48,976 nt of DNA from a virus (taxonomy: Duplodnaviria; Heunggongvirae; Uroviricota; Caudoviricetes), in the IMG/VR virus record IMGVR_UViG_2541047786_000002, positions 1-48,976 of that record; one strand, written 5' to 3'. Shown here one piece after another: positions 1,422 through 18,046 of the stretch. A program made the position numbers and the translations under genes. Numbering within the stretch: the stretch's first letter is position 1; each line of letters starts with the position of its first letter. Under the pieces are notes generated by a model. It did no database searches and had not been told where the DNA came from. It saw nothing but the letters and a program-made list of their open reading frames with translations.

Positions 1422-3893
1422 TTAAAAATCAGCCTGATTTGGGATCAGTTTTTGCCAGATAGCTGAAACGTATTTTGCCTGGTAACGGGCGTCATCAAGT
1501 GCATTATGGCGCTCACCTTCGAATGGAATAGCCGTTCTGGCATCGAAGTCTATGGCTTTCCCCAGCTCAACGATTGTGCGTACATCGCGATCGTTGTAGT
1601 AACGCCACGGGCAGGGGATCCCCTGCCGTTCGTATGAACGGCGCAAAATCGTGTTGTCGAAGTTGGCTCCATTTCCCCAAACCTGAACAAAAAATTCACC
1701 GGAGTTTTCGTCGATAAATTCCCGCAATTGTAACAGTGCATCATCTAACGGGATTTCATCGGTCATAATGGCAGATTGCGCTTCGCGTGATTGCTTAAGC
1801 CACCATTTAATGGTGTCCCGATCAATGACTCCGCCAGCAGTTTCCAGATCGATAGTCTTACTAAATTCCGGTCCCATATCTCCGGTTTGCGGATCGAAAA
1901 ATATTGCACCTATTGAGATGATCGGGGCATCAGGATTTTTTCCCATGGTTTCAAGGTCGATCATTAGATGGTCACACGTCCTGCTGGTGGATGTGATTTC
2001 GTGATGACCGTTCACCTTAATTGAGCGATCTGCCGTCTCGCCAGTTTCATTATCGCTATCGTGATGCTGATTGCCGCCAGTGTTCTCCTTGTGTGGATGT
2101 TCAGCGCCTTCCATTTCCTCCGGATCATCTTCCTGAACTTCAACCTGATACTCTTCATCGAATGTTTCCTGGTATGTTGCGTCGCCCATCACCGCGCCAC
2201 AATCAGGGCAGTTGCCGCCGCCGGTCTGACCGCAGGCGGTGCAGACTTTTTCCACTTCCTGTTGCGCCACTGGTTCAGGCTGTTTCGTTTCTGGCTCGTT
2301 TTGTAACGCATTTGGGCTGTTTTGTTCCGCTTTTTGGTAGTTCCGTTCCGATTCATGCTGGTTCTGGTTCACAGAATCGCGGGTCTGGATCCCCTTAACC
2401 CATTTCGGATCATTCGGGTCACTAATCCCTTCAACAAATTCACCACGTGATGCAGCAAGCAACTTATCGGCGTCAGGCTGGCTGATATTGGCTGCCTGCA
2501 TAATTTTGTTTACTTCGTCAGCGGTAACTTTTATCGGCTCTGGTTGTTCTGAATCTTCAGCGGTATCTACATTTTGCGGTAAGCCCGTGTATGTGCCATT
2601 TTTTCGGGCAAAATATTCTTCTTTTGTGATTTCAGTGGCGCCAGCAGCCAGTGCCTTATCCAGACCAGAAAGTTTGTTTGCGCGACCGCATTTTTCTCCG
2701 TCCTTATCTGCGAAGAGGAAATAGAACGGCCCCTCACGCTCTACAGATGGTTCAGCTTCCGGCGCGGTTTCATTTTTTGGGATATCAGATACCTCAGTTT
2801 CCACTGCATCAGTTTGTGTTTCTGATGACTGGAGAACATCAACAGTGCCCAGGTCTGTTTCTTCATTCTCAAACACGCCCTTTGTCGTCAGGTATTCGCA
2901 GATATATTTGTTCAGTGCTATGGGATCTTTGTGAATGTCGATCGGACGCTCACGGACAAGGCCAAAAATAGTTTGGCGGTCGTAGCGAAGGGCATCAGGC
3001 TGTTTGCGCATTGATGCCGAGATACGCTTCCAGTCTTCGCGGTCGTTGTCGATAACTTCATTTTTTGCCCAGCGATGGATGCTGCCGTCAATGTTTCCGG
3101 CATCCACATCACCAGGCCAGAGAGCGTAGGCCAGTTCGTCATCCAGTGTTTTCCATGTCTGCTTGTATTCGCGATGAATGGCAGCAATGACCGGGCTGAT
3201 TTTTCCTGTTGAATTTTCACTGTGCTGTTGATTGGTTCTGGCGCGGGCGAGATCAATAACAGACGTGTATTTTCCGGTTTCCTTGCGTTCACCTTCGCGA
3301 CGTTTTTTCCAGATGCGCATCTCTGCCTGAATTTCGGGCCATTTGGCACCAGGCTTACATTTATGCTTAACCCACCCGATGGCATGCAGCTTAAGCTCCG
3401 GATACATGGCGTTAACTTCTGGCATTTTCATCAACGCTTCAACGATATGTCCGTCGAATGTTGCCATGTCTTCCTGCAACAATTCCTGTGCGCTAATAAC
3501 CATATCAACGGTGATGTTTTCACATGTGTCGAACTTAACCATGACAGCGTTCTGTACTTCAGGGGCCAGCTTGTCAAAAGTGACGTTCATCGGATCTGAT
3601 TCAGTCTCAACCGGGACAAAGGAAGCAGACTCCTCATCCCAGCGGTTTTCCTGCATATATTCAGCATCCCATGAATCGAGGGCAGGGCGGGGTATGCCAG
3701 GTTTATCCTCGCAGACAATAAATTTATAAGCGCAGTCCTGAGCAGCCGGATAATGTTCCAGGAATTGCCAGTGAAATTTTGCTCGAGCACGGCGTTCGTC
3801 GCCAGCTTCAATGGCTGTGGCTACAGCCACAGCGCCTTCTTCCCTTGTTGCCAGTTCGTCAGGAATAGCAGCGCAAATAAAGACCTTACTCAT
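1422..3893 (-). CDS. Large prophage exonuclease with C-terminal DnaQ-like DEDDh 3'-5' exonuclease domain (Exo VIII-like; full-length counterpart of the truncated Qin ydfE)
   Basis: 823-aa ORF; C-terminal motifs DLETMG ... WGNGANFD ... HNALDDA typical of DEDDh exonucleases; position between xis and the dicB operon. Confidence 0.75.
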   Translation of the reverse strand: MSKVFICAAIPDELATREEGAVAVATAIEAGDERRARAKFHWQFLEHYPAAQDCAYKFIVCEDKPGIPRPALDSWDAEYMQENRWDEESASFVPVETESDPMNVTFDKLAPEVQNAVMVKFDTCENITVDMVISAQELLQEDMATFDGHIVEALMKMPEVNAMYPELKLHAIGWVKHKCKPGAKWPEIQAEMRIWKKRREGERKETGKYTSVIDLARARTNQQHSENSTGKISPVIAAIHREYKQTWKTLDDELAYALWPGDVDAGNIDGSIHRWAKNEVIDNDREDWKRISASMRKQPDALRYDRQTIFGLVRERPIDIHKDPIALNKYICEYLTTKGVFENEETDLGTVDVLQSSETQTDAVETEVSDIPKNETAPEAEPSVEREGPFYFLFADKDGEKCGRANKLSGLDKALAAGATEITKEEYFARKNGTYTGLPQNVDTAEDSEQPEPIKVTADEVNKIMQAANISQPDADKLLAASRGEFVEGISDPNDPKWVKGIQTRDSVNQNQHESERNYQKAEQNSPNALQNEPETKQPEPVAQQEVEKVCTACGQTGGGNCPDCGAVMGDATYQETFDEEYQVEVQEDDPEEMEGAEHPHKENTGGNQHHDSDNETGETADRSIKVNGHHEITSTSRTCDHLMIDLETMGKNPDAPIISIGAIFFDPQTGDMGPEFSKTIDLETAGGVIDRDTIKWWLKQSREAQSAIMTDEIPLDDALLQLREFIDENSGEFFVQVWGNGANFDNTILRRSYERQGIPCPWRYYNDRDVRTIVELGKAIDFDARTAIPFEGERHNALDDARYQAKYVSAIWQKLIPNQADF

Positions 3894-3988
3894 TTTGTTT
3901 TAACCTCATTACAGATTTCAGGGTGAACGAATCCCTGCCATTGCTGGCATTTTTAATCCGTTGGTATGGTGTTAATATGGCTGGAGGG

Positions 3989-4531: not shown

Positions 4532-4588
4532 AAAAAGGGCGGCAGAGCAGTCACGGAGTAAAACTGATACCGCCAAACGTCACCAGAA
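4532..4588 (-). ncRNA. dicF: DicF small regulatory RNA (ftsZ-targeting sRNA of dicB operons)
   Basis: Reverse complement reads TTTCTGGTGACGTTTGGCGGTATCAGTTTTACTCCGTGACTGCTCTGCCGCCCTTTTT, matching recalled E. coli DicF; lies just upstream of dicB on the same strand, as in Qin. Confidence 0.8.
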
Positions 4589-5902: not shown

Positions 5903-6541
5903 TTAAATATCTTGTTGAATTTTAAAGCATACGCCCAATATGCAAGATAGATCATCCAGCATAATTGAAGGGTAGCGAGGATTCGTGGGGACTAAAAGAA
6001 TATCCGGCCCTTCTATCTCCAGTTTACGAATGACAGGTGTTGTGGTCCCTTTGGGTAAGGCAAGGACAATATTTCCCGGTTGTACGGTTCGATCGGGATC
6101 AACAAAAACTGTTGAACCATTTGGGATGGAAACTCCCCCACCAGATGTTGACATACTGTCACTCTCTAGAACAACTGCAAAGGTATTGGCCGGGATTTCT
6201 CCGACAAGCTGCACACAAGAGGTTATTGAGGAATTTTTCATATAATCACTCCAGCTTGCTGCCTGCTGAAGTGATAGTAGCGGAACCGTTTTTATCGGCG
6301 GTAAAGATAGATCAAGCGAATCACCTGTATTTAACTCTCCTCCATTAAGAAGCCAATTTTCGTTTACTTTCAATATGTTTGCCAGTGAACTTATGTAACG
6401 CGAGGACGGCGCTCCTCCACCGTTCATCCATTGACTTACGGAGCCTTTTGATGCGCCAGTGGCATTGACAAGGTCTTTGCCTTTCAGGTTTAGCGCATGC
6501 ATACGTTGGGTTATGCGTTCAGATATTGTTTGCTTGCTCAT
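5903..6541 (-). CDS. CI-like prophage repressor (HTH_XRE N-terminus plus S24 LexA-like self-cleaving peptidase domain)
   Basis: 212 aa; N-terminal HTH (KGKDLVNATGASKGSVSQWMNG); C-terminal S24-like segment (VVLESDSM ... IVLALPKG ... RKLEI); divergent from the cro-like gene. Confidence 0.85.
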   Translation of the reverse strand: MSKQTISERITQRMHALNLKGKDLVNATGASKGSVSQWMNGGGAPSSRYISSLANILKVNENWLLNGGELNTGDSLDLSLPPIKTVPLLSLQQAASWSDYMKNSSITSCVQLVGEIPANTFAVVLESDSMSTSGGGVSIPNGSTVFVDPDRTVQPGNIVLALPKGTTTPVIRKLEIEGPDILLVPTNPRYPSIMLDDLSCILGVCFKIQQDI

Positions 6542-11817: not shown

Positions 11818-12028
11818 AAACGGTTTGCGGGAAAAGGAGAGTTAAGTAGAATTGCAGCGGGTGCTTGAGGCTATCTGTCTCAGGCATGAACACCAAAAGG
11901 CAGATAGAGAAAAGCCCCAGTTAACATTACGCGTCCGGCAAGACGCTTAACATTAATCTGAGGCCATATCTATGCTCTACACACGTAGGTTAGCCTCTTA
12001 CGTGCCGAAAGGCAAGGAGAAGCAGGCT

Positions 12029-12184
12029 ATGAAGCAGCAAAAGGCGATGCTAATCGCCCTGATCGTCATCTGTTTAACCGTCATAGTGACGGCACTGGTA
12101 ACGAGGAAAGACCTCTGCGAGGTACGAATCCGAACCGGCCAGACGGAGGTCGCTGTCTTCACAGCTTACGAACCTGAGGAGTAA
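12029..12184 (+). CDS. hokD: Hok/Gef-family membrane toxin (HokD/RelF-type)
   Basis: 51-aa product MKQQKAMLIALIVICLTVIVTALVTRKDLCEVRIRTGQTEVAVFTAYEPEE matches recalled E. coli HokD; track ORF 11972..12184 is an in-frame N-terminal extension. Confidence 0.85.
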   Translation: MKQQKAMLIALIVICLTVIVTALVTRKDLCEVRIRTGQTEVAVFTAYEPEE

Positions 12185-12253
12185 GAGACCTGGCGGGGGA
12201 GAAATCCCTCGCCACCTCTGATGAGTCAGGCATCCTCAATGCACCCGCGCTTA

Positions 12254-12274
12254 ACCCGCTTCGGCGGGTTTTTC
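12254..12274 (+). terminator. Rho-independent terminator after hok
   Basis: Stem ACCCGC / GCGGGT with TTCG loop followed by TTTTT. Confidence 0.7.
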
Positions 12275-12288
12275 TAGCATCTATCTGG

Positions 12289-12325
12289 TTGACAAAGTCT
12301 ATGTTAAATGGAAATATGGTTGACA
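12289..12325 (+). promoter_or_regulatory. Candidate promoter/operator of the two-gene module
   Basis: Two direct copies of TGGTTGACA (12286-12294 and 12317-12325); first TTGACA has a 17-nt spacer to a weak -10 AAATAT; SD AAGGA ends about 10 nt before ATG 12351. Confidence 0.4.
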
Positions 12326-12350
12326 CCAAAACAACAAGGATATTACGGTC

Positions 12351-12965
12351 ATGCAGAATTTATCTCAACAGTTGTTAGAAGCATATGACAAGGAGTGCCG
12401 CAAAGAGCTTTCGATCGCGTTAGCACAGGCTTATCTTCATTCGCATATGAAGGCAAAAGAGTTTGGTTCTTTTTGGGCTCAAGCACAGTCATATTTGCGC
12501 TGGTTTTATGCCGATGCATTGCTTGAGAATGCGGCTAAGCGTGTGGGGCTGGATTTTGAAGTCGGTAGCAATGCTGCTAAAAATTGTAAACACATTGCGA
12601 TTCACTCGAACAACTGGAAAATGACGGCACATCATTTATCGGGTAATGCGCCACTTCCTAAGCAGGCATTGTATAGAGCTGTTTACGCTAATCAAAATTA
12701 TGAATTGAATTTTGGGGATGAAAATGCCGACTCCCTGGATGGGAGAGCGTCTGGTGGACATGTTTATATGTTACATGATGGCAGTAATCAGCACTTGTCC
12801 AAACTGAATTTAACTGTTCCTTCTTCGGATAATTACGGGATTCTTTATACTGAGTCTTTACCAATTATGACGATGGTAGAAGTTGAAGCAGAAAATGTGG
12901 ATTCTGAGATTGAAGATAAAATCAAGATTCTTACCGAGCAAATAATTAAATCACAGCAATCATGA
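12351..12965 (+). CDS. Hypothetical protein (204 aa), first gene of candidate two-gene module; no recognisable family
   Basis: ORF with upstream SD; stop overlaps the downstream start (ATGA at 12962-12965); AT-rich by eye. Confidence 0.6.
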   Translation: MQNLSQQLLEAYDKECRKELSIALAQAYLHSHMKAKEFGSFWAQAQSYLRWFYADALLENAAKRVGLDFEVGSNAAKNCKHIAIHSNNWKMTAHHLSGNAPLPKQALYRAVYANQNYELNFGDENADSLDGRASGGHVYMLHDGSNQHLSKLNLTVPSSDNYGILYTESLPIMTMVEVEAENVDSEIEDKIKILTEQIIKSQQS

Positions 12966-14107
12966 GCATGAATATCGCACAAACACCATTTACTGATAAA
13001 TCGTTTAATCCTCGTCGCCTTGAGGAGGCAAGAGAGGCAAAAGGGTTGACGATGGCTGAACTTGCCAGAGTGCTCAATATTTCAAGACAAGCTATTTCGT
13101 CATTTGAGAAGGGGTTGAAGTCTCCCTCTGCTGATACACTTTCTGCAATAGCCAAGGTGTTAGGATTTCCAGAACGATTTTTCTTAGCCTCCAGTGCTTC
13201 TCCATCTCTGGAGGGGGCGATTCATTTTAGAAGTCGTTCAACTGCGACCAAAAAGGCTCGAGTTACAGGGAAAACACGTGGGCGTTGGGCGGCATTAATA
13301 TTGGATGAATGTCTAAAATATGCTCAATTACCAGATGTGGTTCTGCCTGAATTCGATATTATTGATTTTGAGGTTCTGTCTCTATCTGATATTGAGGATA
13401 TGTCCACCCAATTAAGGCGTTTTTGGGGGTTAGGTGATGGTCCAATACTCAATTTAACTAGACTTGTTGAAAATAAAGGAATCGTGGTTTCTCATTTACC
13501 TTCTGGTGAGAAAGTTGATGCCTTTTCGTTCTGGCATAATGGGCGGCCTTTAATTATGTTAGATAGCTCGAAGACGGCTGTTCGCATGCGATTTAGTCTT
13601 GCTCATGAACTTGGCCATTTAATTATGCATAGGGCAGTGGAGGATGACTACCTGAATGATAAAGAATTATTCGACCTAGTGGAGTTGCAGGCCGATTATT
13701 TTGCCTCCAGCTTTTTAATGCCAGCCACGACTTTCGGGCGTGAATTTTATAGTCCAAATTTATCAGCGTTAGAACGATTAAAACTACGTTGGATTACATC
13801 TATCGGTAGTATTGCCATGAGGAGTCATAGCCTTAAGTTAATTAGCGATAATCAGAAAAGCTATATATTTAAGCAATTAGCGCCATTCCATCGTAGGGAG
13901 CCGTTAGATGATGCAATCCCAAAAGAAGAGCCTGAGTTACTTAATAAGTTACTTTTACTTCTTGATAAGCATTCAATCATAAAGGTAACTGAGTTAACTG
14001 ATATCTTTGCTCTTCCTTTAAATGAGTTATCTGCAATTACACGATTTAAAGAATCAGATATGATTCATTCTGACAATGTTATTTCATTTACCATAAAACA
14101 AAAATAA
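12962..14107 (+). CDS. HTH_XRE-ImmA/IrrE (COG2856, M78-like) zinc metallopeptidase fusion protein
   Basis: 381 aa; N-terminal XRE-type HTH (LTMAELARVLNISRQAISSFEKG); HEXXH motif AHELGHLIMH (His215-Glu216-His219, DNA 13604..13618) plus downstream LQADYFAS motif typical of ImmA/IrrE. Confidence 0.75.
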   Translation: MSMNIAQTPFTDKSFNPRRLEEAREAKGLTMAELARVLNISRQAISSFEKGLKSPSADTLSAIAKVLGFPERFFLASSASPSLEGAIHFRSRSTATKKARVTGKTRGRWAALILDECLKYAQLPDVVLPEFDIIDFEVLSLSDIEDMSTQLRRFWGLGDGPILNLTRLVENKGIVVSHLPSGEKVDAFSFWHNGRPLIMLDSSKTAVRMRFSLAHELGHLIMHRAVEDDYLNDKELFDLVELQADYFASSFLMPATTFGREFYSPNLSALERLKLRWITSIGSIAMRSHSLKLISDNQKSYIFKQLAPFHRREPLDDAIPKEEPELLNKLLLLLDKHSIIKVTELTDIFALPLNELSAITRFKESDMIHSDNVISFTIKQK

Positions 14108-14118
14108 TTCTCATTCAT

Positions 14119-14142
14119 GCCCGCCTCGGCGGGTTTTTGTTT
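14119..14142 (+). terminator. Rho-independent terminator after the two-gene module
   Basis: Stem CCCGC / GCGGG with CTCG loop followed by TTTTTGTTTT; near-identical to the hok terminator. Confidence 0.7.
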
Positions 14143-14213
14143 TACGTATTCTGGTTTACAATCCACAGGCCAGCCTGAACAACTGGCACCTGCTGCGCCA
14201 GCAGAGACAACCG

Positions 14214-14492
14214 ATGGCGCACGATACCAAATTATACAATTCTGATGATTCTGCCGTCTTTGCCAGCAGGCGCGGACGGTGTTTTCACGCATTCAAATCT
14301 GACTGGTACCAGCATCCCCCATGCACTGAAGAACAGGCCGAATGGCTCATTCAGTGTTACCGCAGGCGCGGATGCGAGGTTAAAAAAGCCCTTAGCCTCG
14401 ACTACCGTCACTGGATAATCTCCGTCAGGCTCCCTTACTCCGAACGGCCAGCGCGTCCGTCCCGCACATTCCAGCAACGGATCTGGAGGTAA
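14214..14492 (+). CDS. Hypothetical small protein (92 aa), possibly Rem-like
   Basis: ORF ending in TAATG overlap with the DUF968 start region; identity not verifiable from memory. Confidence 0.35.
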   Translation: MAHDTKLYNSDDSAVFASRRGRCFHAFKSDWYQHPPCTEEQAEWLIQCYRRRGCEVKKALSLDYRHWIISVRLPYSERPARPSRTFQQRIWR

Positions 14493-14493
14493 T

Positions 14494-15549
14494 GTGCGGG
14501 TATTACTTCGACCTGTTCTGGTACCGGAACTCGGTCTGGTTATCGTTAAGCCAGGCCGTGAATCAATGTCAGCATTCCATAACGGCAGAATACTGGTGGA
14601 GCCGGAACCAAAAAGCATGCGTAATCTGCCGTCCGGGGTCGTTCCTGCCGCTCGCCAGCCGCTGGTGGAAGACAAAACATTGCTGCCGTTTTTCAGTAAC
14701 GCACGGGTGATTCGTGCTGCTGGTGGTGCTGGTGCATTGTCTGACTGGCTGTTGCGCCATATTAAATCCTGCCAGTGGCCACACGGCGATTATCATCACA
14801 GCGAAACCGTCATTCACCGTTATGGTACCGGCGCAATGGTGTTGTGCTGGCACTGCGACAACCAGCTGCGTGACCAGACATCCGAATCACTCGAGCAACT
14901 TGCTCATCAAAACCTGTCAGCATGGATGATTGACGTCATCGGTCACGCAATAAGCGGTACGCAGGAGCGTGAATTATCTTTGGCTGAATTATCCTGGTGG
15001 GCGGTCCGCAATCAGGTGGCGGACGCGCTACCGGAAGCGGTATTACGTCGTTCGCTGGGGTTGCGTGCGGAAAAAATCCGCTCAATGTACCGTGAAAGCG
15101 ACATCGTACCGGGAGAGCAGACCGCCACCAGCATACTGAAGCAGCGCACAAAAAATCTTGCGCCGCTGCCTCACGCCCACCAGCAAAACCCGCCACAGGA
15201 AAAGACGGTGGTCAGCATTGCCGTTGATCCGGAGTCACCGGCTCAGTATCTCCAGCGCCAGAAATCACAACGGGAAGAGATGCCTGTATACACGCGTTGG
15301 GTAAAAACGCAGAAATGCATGACGTGTGGCAATCAGGCAGATGATCCGCATCACATCATTGGTCATGGACTGGGAGGGATGGGAACAAAGGCTGATGATT
15401 TGTTTGTTATTCCGCTGTGCCGTAAATGCCATAGCGAACTACACGCCGGGGTAAAAGATTTTGAAGAAAAACACGGCAGCCAGCTGTTGTTGCTGATTCG
15501 TTTTTTAATGCACGCGAGAAATTCGGGTGTTCTGAAGTGGAAAGCATAA
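14494..15549 (+). CDS. DUF968-family phage protein with C-terminal HNH-like zinc-finger motif (YdfU-like)
   Basis: 351 aa from GTG 14494 (SD GGAGG 5 nt upstream); C-terminal CMTCGN ... DPHHIIGHG ... CRKCHSELH motif. Confidence 0.65.
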   Translation: MRVLLRPVLVPELGLVIVKPGRESMSAFHNGRILVEPEPKSMRNLPSGVVPAARQPLVEDKTLLPFFSNARVIRAAGGAGALSDWLLRHIKSCQWPHGDYHHSETVIHRYGTGAMVLCWHCDNQLRDQTSESLEQLAHQNLSAWMIDVIGHAISGTQERELSLAELSWWAVRNQVADALPEAVLRRSLGLRAEKIRSMYRESDIVPGEQTATSILKQRTKNLAPLPHAHQQNPPQEKTVVSIAVDPESPAQYLQRQKSQREEMPVYTRWVKTQKCMTCGNQADDPHHIIGHGLGGMGTKADDLFVIPLCRKCHSELHAGVKDFEEKHGSQLLLLIRFLMHARNSGVLKWKA

Positions 15550-16891: not shown

Positions 16892-16967
16892 GGCCCTTTA
16901 GCTCAGTGGTGAGAGCGAGCGACTCATAATCGCCAGGTCGCTGGTTCAAATCCAGCAAGGGCCACCA
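16892..16967 (+). tRNA. tRNA with CAT anticodon (ileX/ileZ-like tRNA-Ile2; Met not excluded)
   Basis: 76-nt cloverleaf: acceptor GGCCCTT / AAGGGCC, anticodon loop CTCATAA, T-loop TTCAAAT, encoded CCA; closely resembles recalled E. coli ileX. Confidence 0.8.
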
Positions 16968-17067
16968 TCACAAACCGCCATTAGCTTATCAGGAAGAGCA
17001 GACGACGCGATAACAGGGTTGTTGGTGCGGGGGCGGGTCCCCGATGGCGGTCCATTATCGGTATTCA

Positions 17068-17141
17068 GCGTTGTTAGCTCAGCCGGACAGAGCAATTGCC
17101 TTCTAAGCAATCGGTCACTGGTTCGAATCCAGTACAGCGCG
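17068..17141 (+). tRNA. tRNA-Arg (anticodon TCT), argN/argO-like as in Stx-type phages
   Basis: Acceptor GCGTTGT / ACAGCGC (one G-U), anticodon stem ATTGC / GCAAT with loop CTTCTAA, T-arm ACTGG TTCGAAT CCAGT; CCA not encoded. Confidence 0.75.
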
Positions 17142-17608: not shown

Positions 17609-18010
17609 ATACATATCTGGATTATCACTTGTTACGGTAAAAAGTGATTGCTTACTGTTTTTGTGAGTGGCATTGCAGCAGCCGGATAATGTCAGTGCTG
17701 GCTGACGGTGTGCTGGTGGCGGGTGTGGTGGTTGTTGCTTTCCCGTTGCTGAAAAAGAAAACGCCAGACTGTTAGCCGGGTATCAGTTAGCGGGAGAAAT
17801 TTTTAAATACTTCACAATTCAGGCGGTTGACTGTTGTCTGGTTTGCGGGGAGTTTGTTAAAAGAAACTGGCATGGTGAATCCCCCTGTGCGGAGGGGCAA
17901 TCAGCGAGTAGGTATATGGGATAATCGCGGATTCAGGTGCTGGTACTGAATTCACCGGGAGGCACCCGGCACCATGCAATGGCACATAGCGCCACTCTCC
18001 AGCCCCTCTC

Positions 18011-18046
18011 CGGAGGGGCTGTTTATATTGATTTTGTCAGATGTGA
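18011..18046 (+). terminator. Rho-independent terminator-like hairpin
   Basis: Perfect 8-bp stem AGCCCCTC / GAGGGGCT with TCCG loop followed by a T-rich tract GTTTATATTGATTTT. Confidence 0.5.

What the first reader, a model, noticed from the sequence alone, without database searches (positions are those of the whole stretch)
12277..14145. Candidate undescribed two-gene module: unknown 204-aa protein plus HTH_XRE-ImmA/IrrE metallopeptidase, inserted beside hok
This is a self-contained, AT-rich moron with its own promoter-like region (direct repeat TGGTTGACA x2), two ATGA-coupled genes and a terminator that nearly duplicates the hok terminator just upstream, suggesting insertion at a terminator. 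Gene 2 fuses an XRE HTH to an ImmA/IrrE-type zinc protease (HEXXH at His215-Glu216-His219), a sensor-protease class known from ImmA/ImmR of ICEBs1 and IrrE/DdrO of Deinococcus. Gene 1 (204 aa) has no recognisable family and could be a toxin or effector held in check or activated by the protease-regulator. The location between hokD and DUF968/rusA/Q is where Qin carries relBE, i.e. a recurrent toxin-antitoxin or defence cargo site.
Basis: partly seen in the sequence, partly recalled or inferred. Interest (0 to 1): 0.8.

Follow-up and report, generated by a model that had tools for sequence, protein, structure and literature searches.

The report
Prophage RosmerTA toxin–antitoxin defence module
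The two genes are real and form a mobile cargo cassette in a lambda-like prophage, but they belong to the already described RosmerTA family of toxin–antitoxin phage-defence systems, so this is an untested branch of a known kind rather than an undescribed system.

Summary
There are two ATGA-coupled genes (12351-12965, 204 aa; 12962-14107, 381 aa), 39.7% GC against 50.9% for the window, two TGGTTGACA boxes, HEXXH at 215-219, and a terminator that duplicates the hok terminator.

The module is not undescribed. Gene 2 matches the PADLOC RmrA model over its full length (E 5.5e-102). It is 31% identical over 354 aa to the experimentally verified RmrA of E. coli OLC-716. Gene 1 has no Pfam or NCBIfam family but hits RmrT models (7.5e-10), and 56 of 58 of its remote relatives hit the same model (best 1.8e-53). 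Its RmrT family differs in sequence from the verified RmrT.

The toxin-then-antitoxin pair is conserved from Enterobacterales to Firmicutes prophages and sits at three different positions in lambdoid phages. It is uncoupled from the immunity region.

New details from this work:
- The two boxes are 100% conserved although synonymous sites are near saturation, which suggests RmrA operators.

Verdict: a new, untested member of a known kind, of modest interest.

The parts
12255..12273 (+). Left copy of the duplicated terminator stem-loop (the resident hok terminator, CCCGCTTCGGCGGGTTTTT). It marks the left edge of the insertion.
   Evidence: Direct repeat D2 with 14120-14138, 18/19 nt identical. 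Homology to the empty site of phage Evi ends at 12272.
12286..12294 (+). Box 1, TGGTTGACA. It contains a perfect -35 hexamer (TTGACA, 12289-12294). It is a candidate RmrA operator overlapping the -35.
   Evidence: Identical in the window and in L001, L003, L004, L005 and L006, although 4-fold degenerate sites of the genes are only 26-41% identical. The operator role is inferred.
12289..12317 (+). Putative module promoter: -35 TTGACA, a 17-bp spacer, then a weak -10 AAATAT (12312-12317). The A at position 2 and T at position 6 are kept in all four homologous loci.
   Evidence: Read. The consensus scan did not call it because the -10 matches only 3 of 6. Inferred.
12317..12325 (+). Box 2, TGGTTGACA, 31 bp downstream of box 1. 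It overlaps the end of the putative -10 and the predicted transcription start. It is a candidate second operator.
   Evidence: No usable -10 lies downstream of it before the Shine-Dalgarno AAGGA (12336-12340) and the ATG at 12351.
12351..12965 (+). rmrT-like gene, 204 aa: a predicted soluble toxin/effector. The model shows a long N-terminal helix, a six-stranded alpha/beta core with a restriction-endonuclease-like fold, and an acidic C-terminal helix.
12962..14107 (+). rmrA gene, 381 aa: XRE HTH (residues 20-73), a linker with invariant F89-R90, an M78 Zn-metallopeptidase domain (residues 170-287; H215, E216, H219, E241, D245), and a conserved C-terminal region. It is the predicted antitoxin/regulator.
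   Evidence: PADLOC RmrA PDLC03947 at 5.5e-102 over residues 11-380. Pfam domains. 31% identity and E 4e-41 to the verified RmrA. Invariant catalytic residues.
14119..14144 (+). Terminator of the module (stem 14119-14134 plus T-run). This is the right copy of the duplicated hok-terminator sequence, and homology to the empty site resumes at 14120.

Best explanation
The region is a RosmerTA-type two-gene toxin-antitoxin / abortive-infection module. It is carried as a moron by a lambdoid prophage of the ompW-integrating, Tritos-like kind.

Shown:
- A 1.87-kb AT-rich cassette sits between two copies of the hok terminator.
- It encodes an RmrT-family protein followed, with translational coupling, by an RmrA protein. 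RmrA is an XRE HTH fused to an intact M78 Zn-peptidase.
- The pair is conserved as a unit across phyla and moves between cargo sites of lambdoid prophages.

Inferred from the family (Millman 2022; Ernits 2023; RipAB 2025; Rousset 2021):
- RmrT is toxic when free.
- RmrA neutralises it and, through its HTH, probably represses the operon by binding the two TGGTTGACA boxes that overlap the -35 and the transcription start.
- Infection by another phage perturbs RmrA. By analogy with ImmA/ImmR, IrrE/DdrO and CapP/CapH, this may be proteolytic cleavage of the HTH-bearing part, here possibly in cis or in trans at the conserved linker.
- Freed RmrT then arrests the cell before the invader completes its cycle, which protects the lysogen population.
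- Housekeeping ClpXP may be needed to keep the toxin in check, as in two other Rosmer systems.

The biochemical target of this RmrT is unknown. Its predicted restriction-endonuclease-like fold suggests a nucleic-acid target. Its conserved residues (N74, N78, H81, T92, R/K104, R109, N116, H142) are not a canonical PD-(D/E)XK site.
For: - RmrA: full-length HMM match at E 5.5e-102; 31% identity over 354 aa to the verified E. coli OLC-716 RmrA, E 4e-41; catalytic H215/E216/H219/E241/D245 invariant across six RmrAs including the verified one.
- RmrT: hits four RmrT models. An exhaustive profile search finds 78 relatives, and 56 of the 58 scanned match RmrT PDLC03933, best 1.8e-53.
- Gene order and adjacency are conserved in Yersinia-type, ENA, Agathobaculum and other loci.
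- The 4-nt overlap is conserved in the close family.
- Purifying selection acts on both genes.
- It is accessory: 41 of 5426 complete E. coli genomes carry it.
- The empty site is found in Evi.
- It occupies other cargo positions: downstream of cI and upstream of N, in the L003 contig that carries a protein found in Yersinia rochesterensis, and in the nin region in L005.
- The boxes are conserved although 4-fold sites are only 26-41% identical.
- Family phenotypes: delta-rmrA could not be transformed and the system defends; Kita RmrTA is toxic, neutralised and defends; RipAB; the clpP link.
Against: - Nothing here tests toxicity, neutralisation or defence.
- This RmrT sequence family is not the verified one. 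BLASTP and hhalign find no similarity, and the two hit disjoint PADLOC models.
- The window protein's own RmrT HMM hit is moderate and partial (7.5e-10, residues 47-161).
- In the related PD-lambda-2 system the Xre-peptidase protein, not the upstream gene, was the toxic one, so the roles could be reversed.
- The operator and self-cleavage steps are analogy only.
Confidence: 0.8

Rival explanations
1. It is a purely selfish addiction module. The pair stabilises the prophage, or itself, by post-segregational killing, like the neighbouring hok/sok, and gives no protection against other phages.
For: It sits directly beside another addiction locus, hok/sok. TA architecture with translational coupling. 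Rosmer-type systems have non-defence phenotypes: RipAB induces competence, and the E101 module makes clpP essential.
Against: Two Rosmer systems tested on phages did defend. The cassette recurs at classic prophage defence-cargo positions, including the site between cI and N. Addiction and defence are not mutually exclusive.
Confidence: 0.1
2. The roles are reversed, as reported for PD-lambda-2. The HTH-peptidase protein is the toxic effector, and the 204-aa protein is its inhibitor or sensor.
For: In PD-lambda-2, overexpression of the Xre-peptidase component alone was toxic and was rescued by the upstream gene. The conserved residues of the 204-aa protein do not form a recognisable catalytic site. 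Gene order in this antitoxin hub is variable, 58% toxin-first.
Against: Gene 2 matches PD-Lambda-2_B only at E 0.002 but RmrA at 5.5e-102. In all three studied Rosmer pairs the non-peptidase partner is the toxin. There is no third gene as in PD-lambda-2.
Confidence: 0.06
3. It is an ImmA/ImmR-like induction switch of the prophage. The protease cleaves a repressor to control lysogeny, and gene 1 is an accessory factor.
For: Sequence similarity of gene 2 to ImmR, IrrE and CapP entries in the PDB. ImmA-type proteases control induction of ICEBs1 (cited).
Against: The prophage has its own HTH + Peptidase_S24 CI repressor (5903-6541, minus strand). Phages 640R1 and 813R8 share this immunity region at 97.7% identity yet have the empty site. 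Tritos carries the cassette with a different CI. The cassette occurs in three unrelated positions and immunity types.
Confidence: 0.03

Closest known systems
RosmerTA (RmrT/RmrA) of E. coli OLC-716, verified in Millman et al. 2022
   Same: A two-gene operon with the toxin gene first. RmrA has the same HTH + Zn-peptidase + C-terminal architecture, is 31% identical over 354 aa, and keeps all catalytic residues.
   Different: The RmrT partner is unrelated in sequence. BLASTP and hhalign find nothing, and the two hit disjoint PADLOC models: 03935/03932 versus 03933/34/37/40. The best RmrA model also differs (03947 versus 03949).
RmrTA of Gordonia phage Kita (Ernits et al. 2023, PMC10440598)
   Same: A phage-borne Rosmer pair with an ImmA-type antitoxin. 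It is toxic, is neutralised, and gives narrow defence.
   Different: The Kita toxin has transmembrane segments and depolarises the membrane. The 204-aa protein here has no hydrophobic segment (maximum KD19 of 0.7) and a predicted nuclease-like fold.
RipAB (Spr1630/Spr1629) of Streptococcus pneumoniae (PMC12795458)
   Same: An antitoxin built from an XRE HTH plus an ImmA-like domain. Gene 2 hits the NCBIfam 'spr1629 family repressor/antitoxin' model at E 4.8e-55.
   Different: The score of 187 bits is below the family cut-off of 335. RipA targets the sliding clamp and depends on ClpX.
ImmA/ImmR (ICEBs1), IrrE/DdrO (Deinococcus), CapP/CapH (CBASS)
   Same: The same M78 protease chemistry and the same logic of a protease acting on an XRE HTH regulator. 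Sequence hits to CapP 7t5t, ImmR 7t8i and IrrE 3dte.
   Different: In those systems the protease and the HTH are separate proteins that regulate an element or an SOS-like regulon. Here they are fused in one protein, paired with a toxin, and uncoupled from the prophage immunity region.
PD-lambda-2 (Vassallo et al. 2022, PMC9519451)
   Same: An Xre-peptidase fusion encoded downstream of a toxin-like gene, with E. coli defence by abortive infection.
   Different: PD-lambda-2 has three genes, with a HigB-like first gene and a P4-antitoxin-like third gene. Gene 2 matches PD-Lambda-2_B only at E 0.002.

Membership tests
RosmerTA (RmrT/RmrA) | RmrA: an N-terminal XRE-type HTH fused to a Zn-metallopeptidase (M78/COG2856) domain | tested here: met
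   HTH_3 at 2.4e-16 and Peptidase_M78 at 9.7e-19. HELGH at 215-219, with E241 and D245 invariant.
RosmerTA (RmrT/RmrA) | RmrA is homologous to curated RmrA models and to the experimentally verified RmrA | tested here: met
   PDLC03947 at 5.5e-102 over residues 11-380 of a 383-position model; 14 RmrA models hit. 31% identity and E 4e-41 to OLC-716 RmrA.
RosmerTA (RmrT/RmrA) | The adjacent, co-oriented partner gene matches an RmrT model | tested here: met
   PDLC03933 at 7.5e-10 and PDLC03934 at 6e-8, both partial. Reinforced transitively: 56 of 58 profile-search relatives hit PDLC03933, best 1.8e-53. Adjacency with a 4-nt overlap. Whether the PADLOC or DefenseFinder system rules would call it was not run.
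RosmerTA (RmrT/RmrA) | The pair is conserved as a unit across genomes | tested here: met
   The RmrT-like gene is followed by an HTH+M78 gene in L003, L004, L005, L008, L009 and L012.
RosmerTA (RmrT/RmrA) | RmrT is toxic and RmrA neutralises it | not testable with these tools
   Needs expression assays. Known only for other RmrT families.
RosmerTA (RmrT/RmrA) | The system protects against phage infection | not testable with these tools
   Needs plaque assays. Shown for OLC-716 and Kita only.
PD-(D/E)XK restriction-endonuclease-like nucleases (for RmrT) | The alpha-beta-beta-beta-alpha-beta core fold | tested here: inconclusive
PD-(D/E)XK restriction-endonuclease-like nucleases (for RmrT) | Conserved acidic/lysine catalytic motif (D ... 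D/E-x-K) on strands 2 and 3 | tested here: not met
   The family-conserved residues are N74, N78, H81, T92, R/K104, R109, N116 and H142. No conserved D or E lies in residues 68-95.
ImmA/ImmR-type element induction switch | A separate protease and repressor that control induction of the host element and are linked to its immunity region | tested here: not met
   The domains are fused. The prophage has its own S24-type CI. The same immunity region occurs without the cassette, and the cassette occurs with another CI.
PD-lambda-2 | A three-gene system: HigB-like, Xre-peptidase and P4-antitoxin-like | tested here: not met
   Only two genes lie between the terminators. Gene 1 has no HigB hit. PD-Lambda-2_B matches at E 0.002 only.

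The most novel reading that the evidence does not exclude
The RmrT superfamily represented here (about 200-220 aa, no Pfam family, found from Enterobacterales to Firmicutes) may be a new kind of effector. It would be built on a restriction-endonuclease-like scaffold in which the metal-binding acidic site is replaced by an Asn/His/Thr/Arg constellation, for example a metal-independent nuclease or a nucleic-acid- or protein-binding poison. RmrA would be a single-chain sensor that both represses the operon at the two TGGTTGACA operators and releases the toxin by self-cleavage at the invariant F89-R90 linker. That would give the first mechanistic model for Rosmer activation.
Probability: 0.25. Interest if true: 0.55.

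Novelty: new member of a known kind. Interest (0 to 1): 0.3.

Why it matters
The finding mainly corrects the label. Standard annotation calls these genes 'hypothetical protein' and 'ImmA/IrrE metallo-endopeptidase', yet they form a RosmerTA-type defence/TA cassette on an E. coli prophage.

The mechanism of Rosmer systems is still unsolved. This compact, E. coli-native variant offers several handles for experiments:
- a soluble toxin with a confidently predicted fold;
- a short list of conserved residues;
- a pair of strictly conserved candidate operators;
- natural empty-site controls.

It also shows that the hok terminator acts as a recombination or cargo hotspot in lambdoid phages.

Tried and rejected
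1. AF2 on the shallow 9-sequence alignment gave pLDDT 38.6 and was discarded. The 58-sequence alignment was needed.
2. The afdb50 fold library was unavailable. Foldseek against PDB and BFVD gave no hit below E 0.01.
3. Direct and profile comparison of gene 1 with the verified OLC-716 RmrT found no similarity.
4. Pfam and NCBIfam scans of all 58 family members found no family. A PDB sequence search with the profile found nothing.
5. A word-indexed profile search with alignment A3 added almost nothing. As a result, no RipA/Spr1630 sequence was obtained, and its relation to this RmrT stays untested.
6. I looked for TGGTTGACA-like paired boxes upstream of the distant loci L008, L009 and L012. None were found, so the boxes are specific to the enterobacterial clade.
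7. The Rousset 2021 clpP-linked prophage TA was considered as possibly identical to this pair. It was rejected because its suppressor T46S fits T46 of the OLC-716-type RmrT (read from the sequence), whereas position 46 here is Q.
8. A literature search for phage Tritos found nothing.
9. A relBE pair seen in strain TUM13773 was checked and is not present in the window, whose immunity region differs.
Full report
**Observation.**
- Two + strand ORFs, 12351..12965 (204 aa) and 12962..14107 (381 aa), overlap by ATGA.
- GC falls to 0.37-0.44 across 12200-14200 against 0.50-0.56 in the flanks. The insert is 39.7% GC and the window 50.9%.
- TGGTTGACA occurs at 12286 and 12317. The expected count is 0.49 per window.
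- The hairpin and T-run at 14119-14144 repeat 18 of 19 nt of the hok terminator at 12255-12273.
- Gene 2 carries HTH_3 (2.4e-16) and Peptidase_M78 (9.7e-19), with HELGH at 215-219.
- Gene 1 has no Pfam or NCBIfam match.

**Family assignment.**
Against PADLOC-DB, gene 2 matches RmrA models over its whole length. The best is PDLC03947 at 5.5e-102 over residues 11-380, and 14 RmrA models are hit. Gene 1 matches four RmrT models, the best being PDLC03933 at 7.5e-10 over residues 47-161.

RmrT/RmrA is the RosmerTA defence system of Millman et al. 2022. [quoted passage not shown] The verified system comes from E. coli OLC-716, and its sequences are in the paper's supplement.

Gene 2 is 31% identical to the verified RmrA over 354 aa (E 4e-41). 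The catalytic H215, E216, H219, E241 and D245 are invariant in six RmrAs, including the verified one.

Gene 1 shows no similarity to the verified RmrT by BLASTP or by profile comparison. The verified RmrT hits PADLOC models 03935 and 03932, whereas gene 1 and its relatives hit 03933, 03934, 03937, 03938 and 03940. This fits the literature, in which different toxins are paired with the same protease antitoxin.

**The gene 1 family.**
The word-indexed search found only about ten close clusters, all from Enterobacterales where a source names them, namely E. coli, Salmonella and Yersinia. An exhaustive profile search found 78 relatives of about 200-220 aa. Of the 58 full-length ones, 56 match RmrT PDLC03933 at E of 1e-5 or better, the best at 1.8e-53. 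Gene 1 is therefore a divergent enterobacterial branch of an RmrT superfamily that has no Pfam or NCBIfam model and no solved structure.

With the 58-sequence alignment, AlphaFold2 gives a confident model (pLDDT 86.7, pTM 0.78). It has a long N-terminal helix, a six-stranded alpha/beta core and a C-terminal acidic helix.

The family-conserved residues are Y28, N74, N78, H81, T92, R/K104, A106, R109, N116, F121, H142, P157 and E181. No conserved D...(D/E)xK motif is present, so this is not a canonical PD-(D/E)XK active site. The protein has no hydrophobic segment, unlike the membrane-depolarising Kita RmrT.

**Conservation of the pair and mobility.**
The RmrT-like gene is followed by an HTH+M78 gene of about 380 aa in every locus where the contig extends far enough:
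- the L003 contig and a Yersinia rochesterensis assembly (L003, L004);
- an ENA metagenome contig (L005);
- an Agathobaculum prophage, between the lysin and an integrase (L008);
- another Logan contig (L012).

The 4-nt overlap is kept in the close family.

The cassette occupies three different positions in lambdoid genomes:
- after the hok terminator (the window and phage Tritos);
- between cI and N (L003; from my own knowledge, this corresponds to the rexAB position of lambda);
- in the nin region between Ead/Ea22 and DUF1367/RusA/Q (L005).

It is rare: 41 of 5426 complete E. coli genomes carry it, all at 99% identity or more. The exact proteins nevertheless occur on at least 1000 public contigs each, annotated as hypothetical and as ImmA/IrrE.

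**Insertion anatomy.**
In phage Evi, window 11840-12272 aligns to Evi 2942-3373 and window 14120-14700 aligns to Evi 3356-3939. The two alignments share 18 nt of Evi, which are the terminator stem-loop. That stem-loop is present once in Evi and twice in the window.

In relatives the same site is empty (Evi, 640R1, 813R8), or holds rem (K-12 Qin, PPompW/Stx phages), a 130-aa ORF (689R5) or IS629. However, in Qin relBE lies upstream of hokD, not at this site.

**Regulatory region.**
The two TGGTTGACA boxes and their 31-bp spacing are identical in the window, Tritos, TUM13773, L003, L004 and L005. In the same comparisons 4-fold degenerate sites are only 26-41% identical and dS is saturated. The boxes are therefore under strong constraint and belong to the cassette.

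Box 1 contains a perfect -35. Seventeen bp downstream lies a weak -10 (AAATAT) whose A2 and T6 are conserved. The predicted transcription start falls inside box 2. No workable -10 follows box 2 before the Shine-Dalgarno sequence and the ATG.

I infer one promoter flanked by two operators for the RmrA HTH, which would give autorepression. This is inference only.

**Rivals.**
- *ImmA-like prophage induction switch: unlikely.* The window has its own HTH + S24 CI (5903-6541). Phages with the same immunity region lack the cassette (640R1 and 813R8). Tritos has the cassette with a different CI.
- *Reversed roles: possible but disfavoured.* This is prompted by PD-lambda-2, where the Xre-peptidase component is the toxic one. 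The strong RmrA match against a weak PD-Lambda-2_B match argues against it, as do three studied Rosmer pairs.
- *Addiction-only role: cannot be excluded.* It is compatible with defence.

**Mechanism.**
The best-supported reading is a RosmerTA toxin-antitoxin/abortive-infection module, in which RmrA neutralises RmrT and represses the operon and phage infection relieves this.

The trigger and the release step are unknown for the whole family. By analogy with ImmA/ImmR, IrrE/DdrO and CapP/CapH, I propose cleavage of the HTH part. RmrA has an invariant F89-R90 motif in the linker. From memory, the separate substrates ImmR and DdrO are cut in a comparable region, but this was not tested.

Two other Rosmer systems depend on ClpP or ClpX to restrain the toxin. 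Whether this one does is unknown.

**Verdict.**
This is a new, experimentally untested member of a known kind. The points of interest are modest: the toxin's nuclease-like fold without the canonical site, the conserved operator-like boxes, and the terminator-duplication insertion.

Noticed in passing
window 11859-12184: A hok/sok type I toxin-antitoxin locus lies immediately upstream of the cassette. Rfam sok scores 117 bits at 11859-12034, and the mok/hok ORF is at 11972-12184. Two unrelated toxin systems therefore sit back to back, and the cassette re-uses the hok terminator sequence.
   Followed up: partly
window 12274-12297 versus 14139-14163: Beyond the terminator itself, the sequence after each copy is also similar: TATCTGGTTGACAA on the left and TATTCTGGTTTACAA on the right and in the Evi empty site. 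The resident site thus resembles box 1 of the cassette, which could have guided recombination or could be coincidence.
   Followed up: no
window 14214-14492: A 92-aa ORF lies directly after the cassette. It is conserved next to ydfU/DUF968 in related phages, where it is annotated 'toxin to Rem' or hypothetical. It has no Pfam family.
   Followed up: partly
window 14494-15549: The DUF968 (YdfU) protein also matches a putative HNH nuclease domain, HNHc_6, at 3.8e-7 in its C-terminal part.
   Followed up: no
window 16892-17141 and 17841-18030: Two tRNA genes and an STnc100 sRNA match (132 bits) lie downstream of the Q antiterminator. Strain TUM13773 carries a DNA methyltransferase and three tRNAs at the corresponding place, so this is another variable cargo region.
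   Followed up: no
window 4537-4588 (minus strand): A DicF antisense sRNA (77 bits) lies in the early-left region of the prophage, next to a stretch collinear with dicB of TUM13773.
   Followed up: no
L006 (E. coli TUM13773) 13236-13717; absent from the window: A prophage that carries the identical cassette has a RelE/ParE-RelB pair directly downstream of a different repressor. The window instead has an HTH+S24 CI. The cassette therefore travels between prophages with different immunity regions and different neighbouring TA cargo.
   Followed up: partly
RmrA residues 89-100 (window 13226-13261): An invariant F89-R90 and R100 lie in the linker between the HTH and the protease domain in all six RmrA sequences aligned, including the verified one. 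This is a candidate cleavage or regulatory motif.
   Followed up: no
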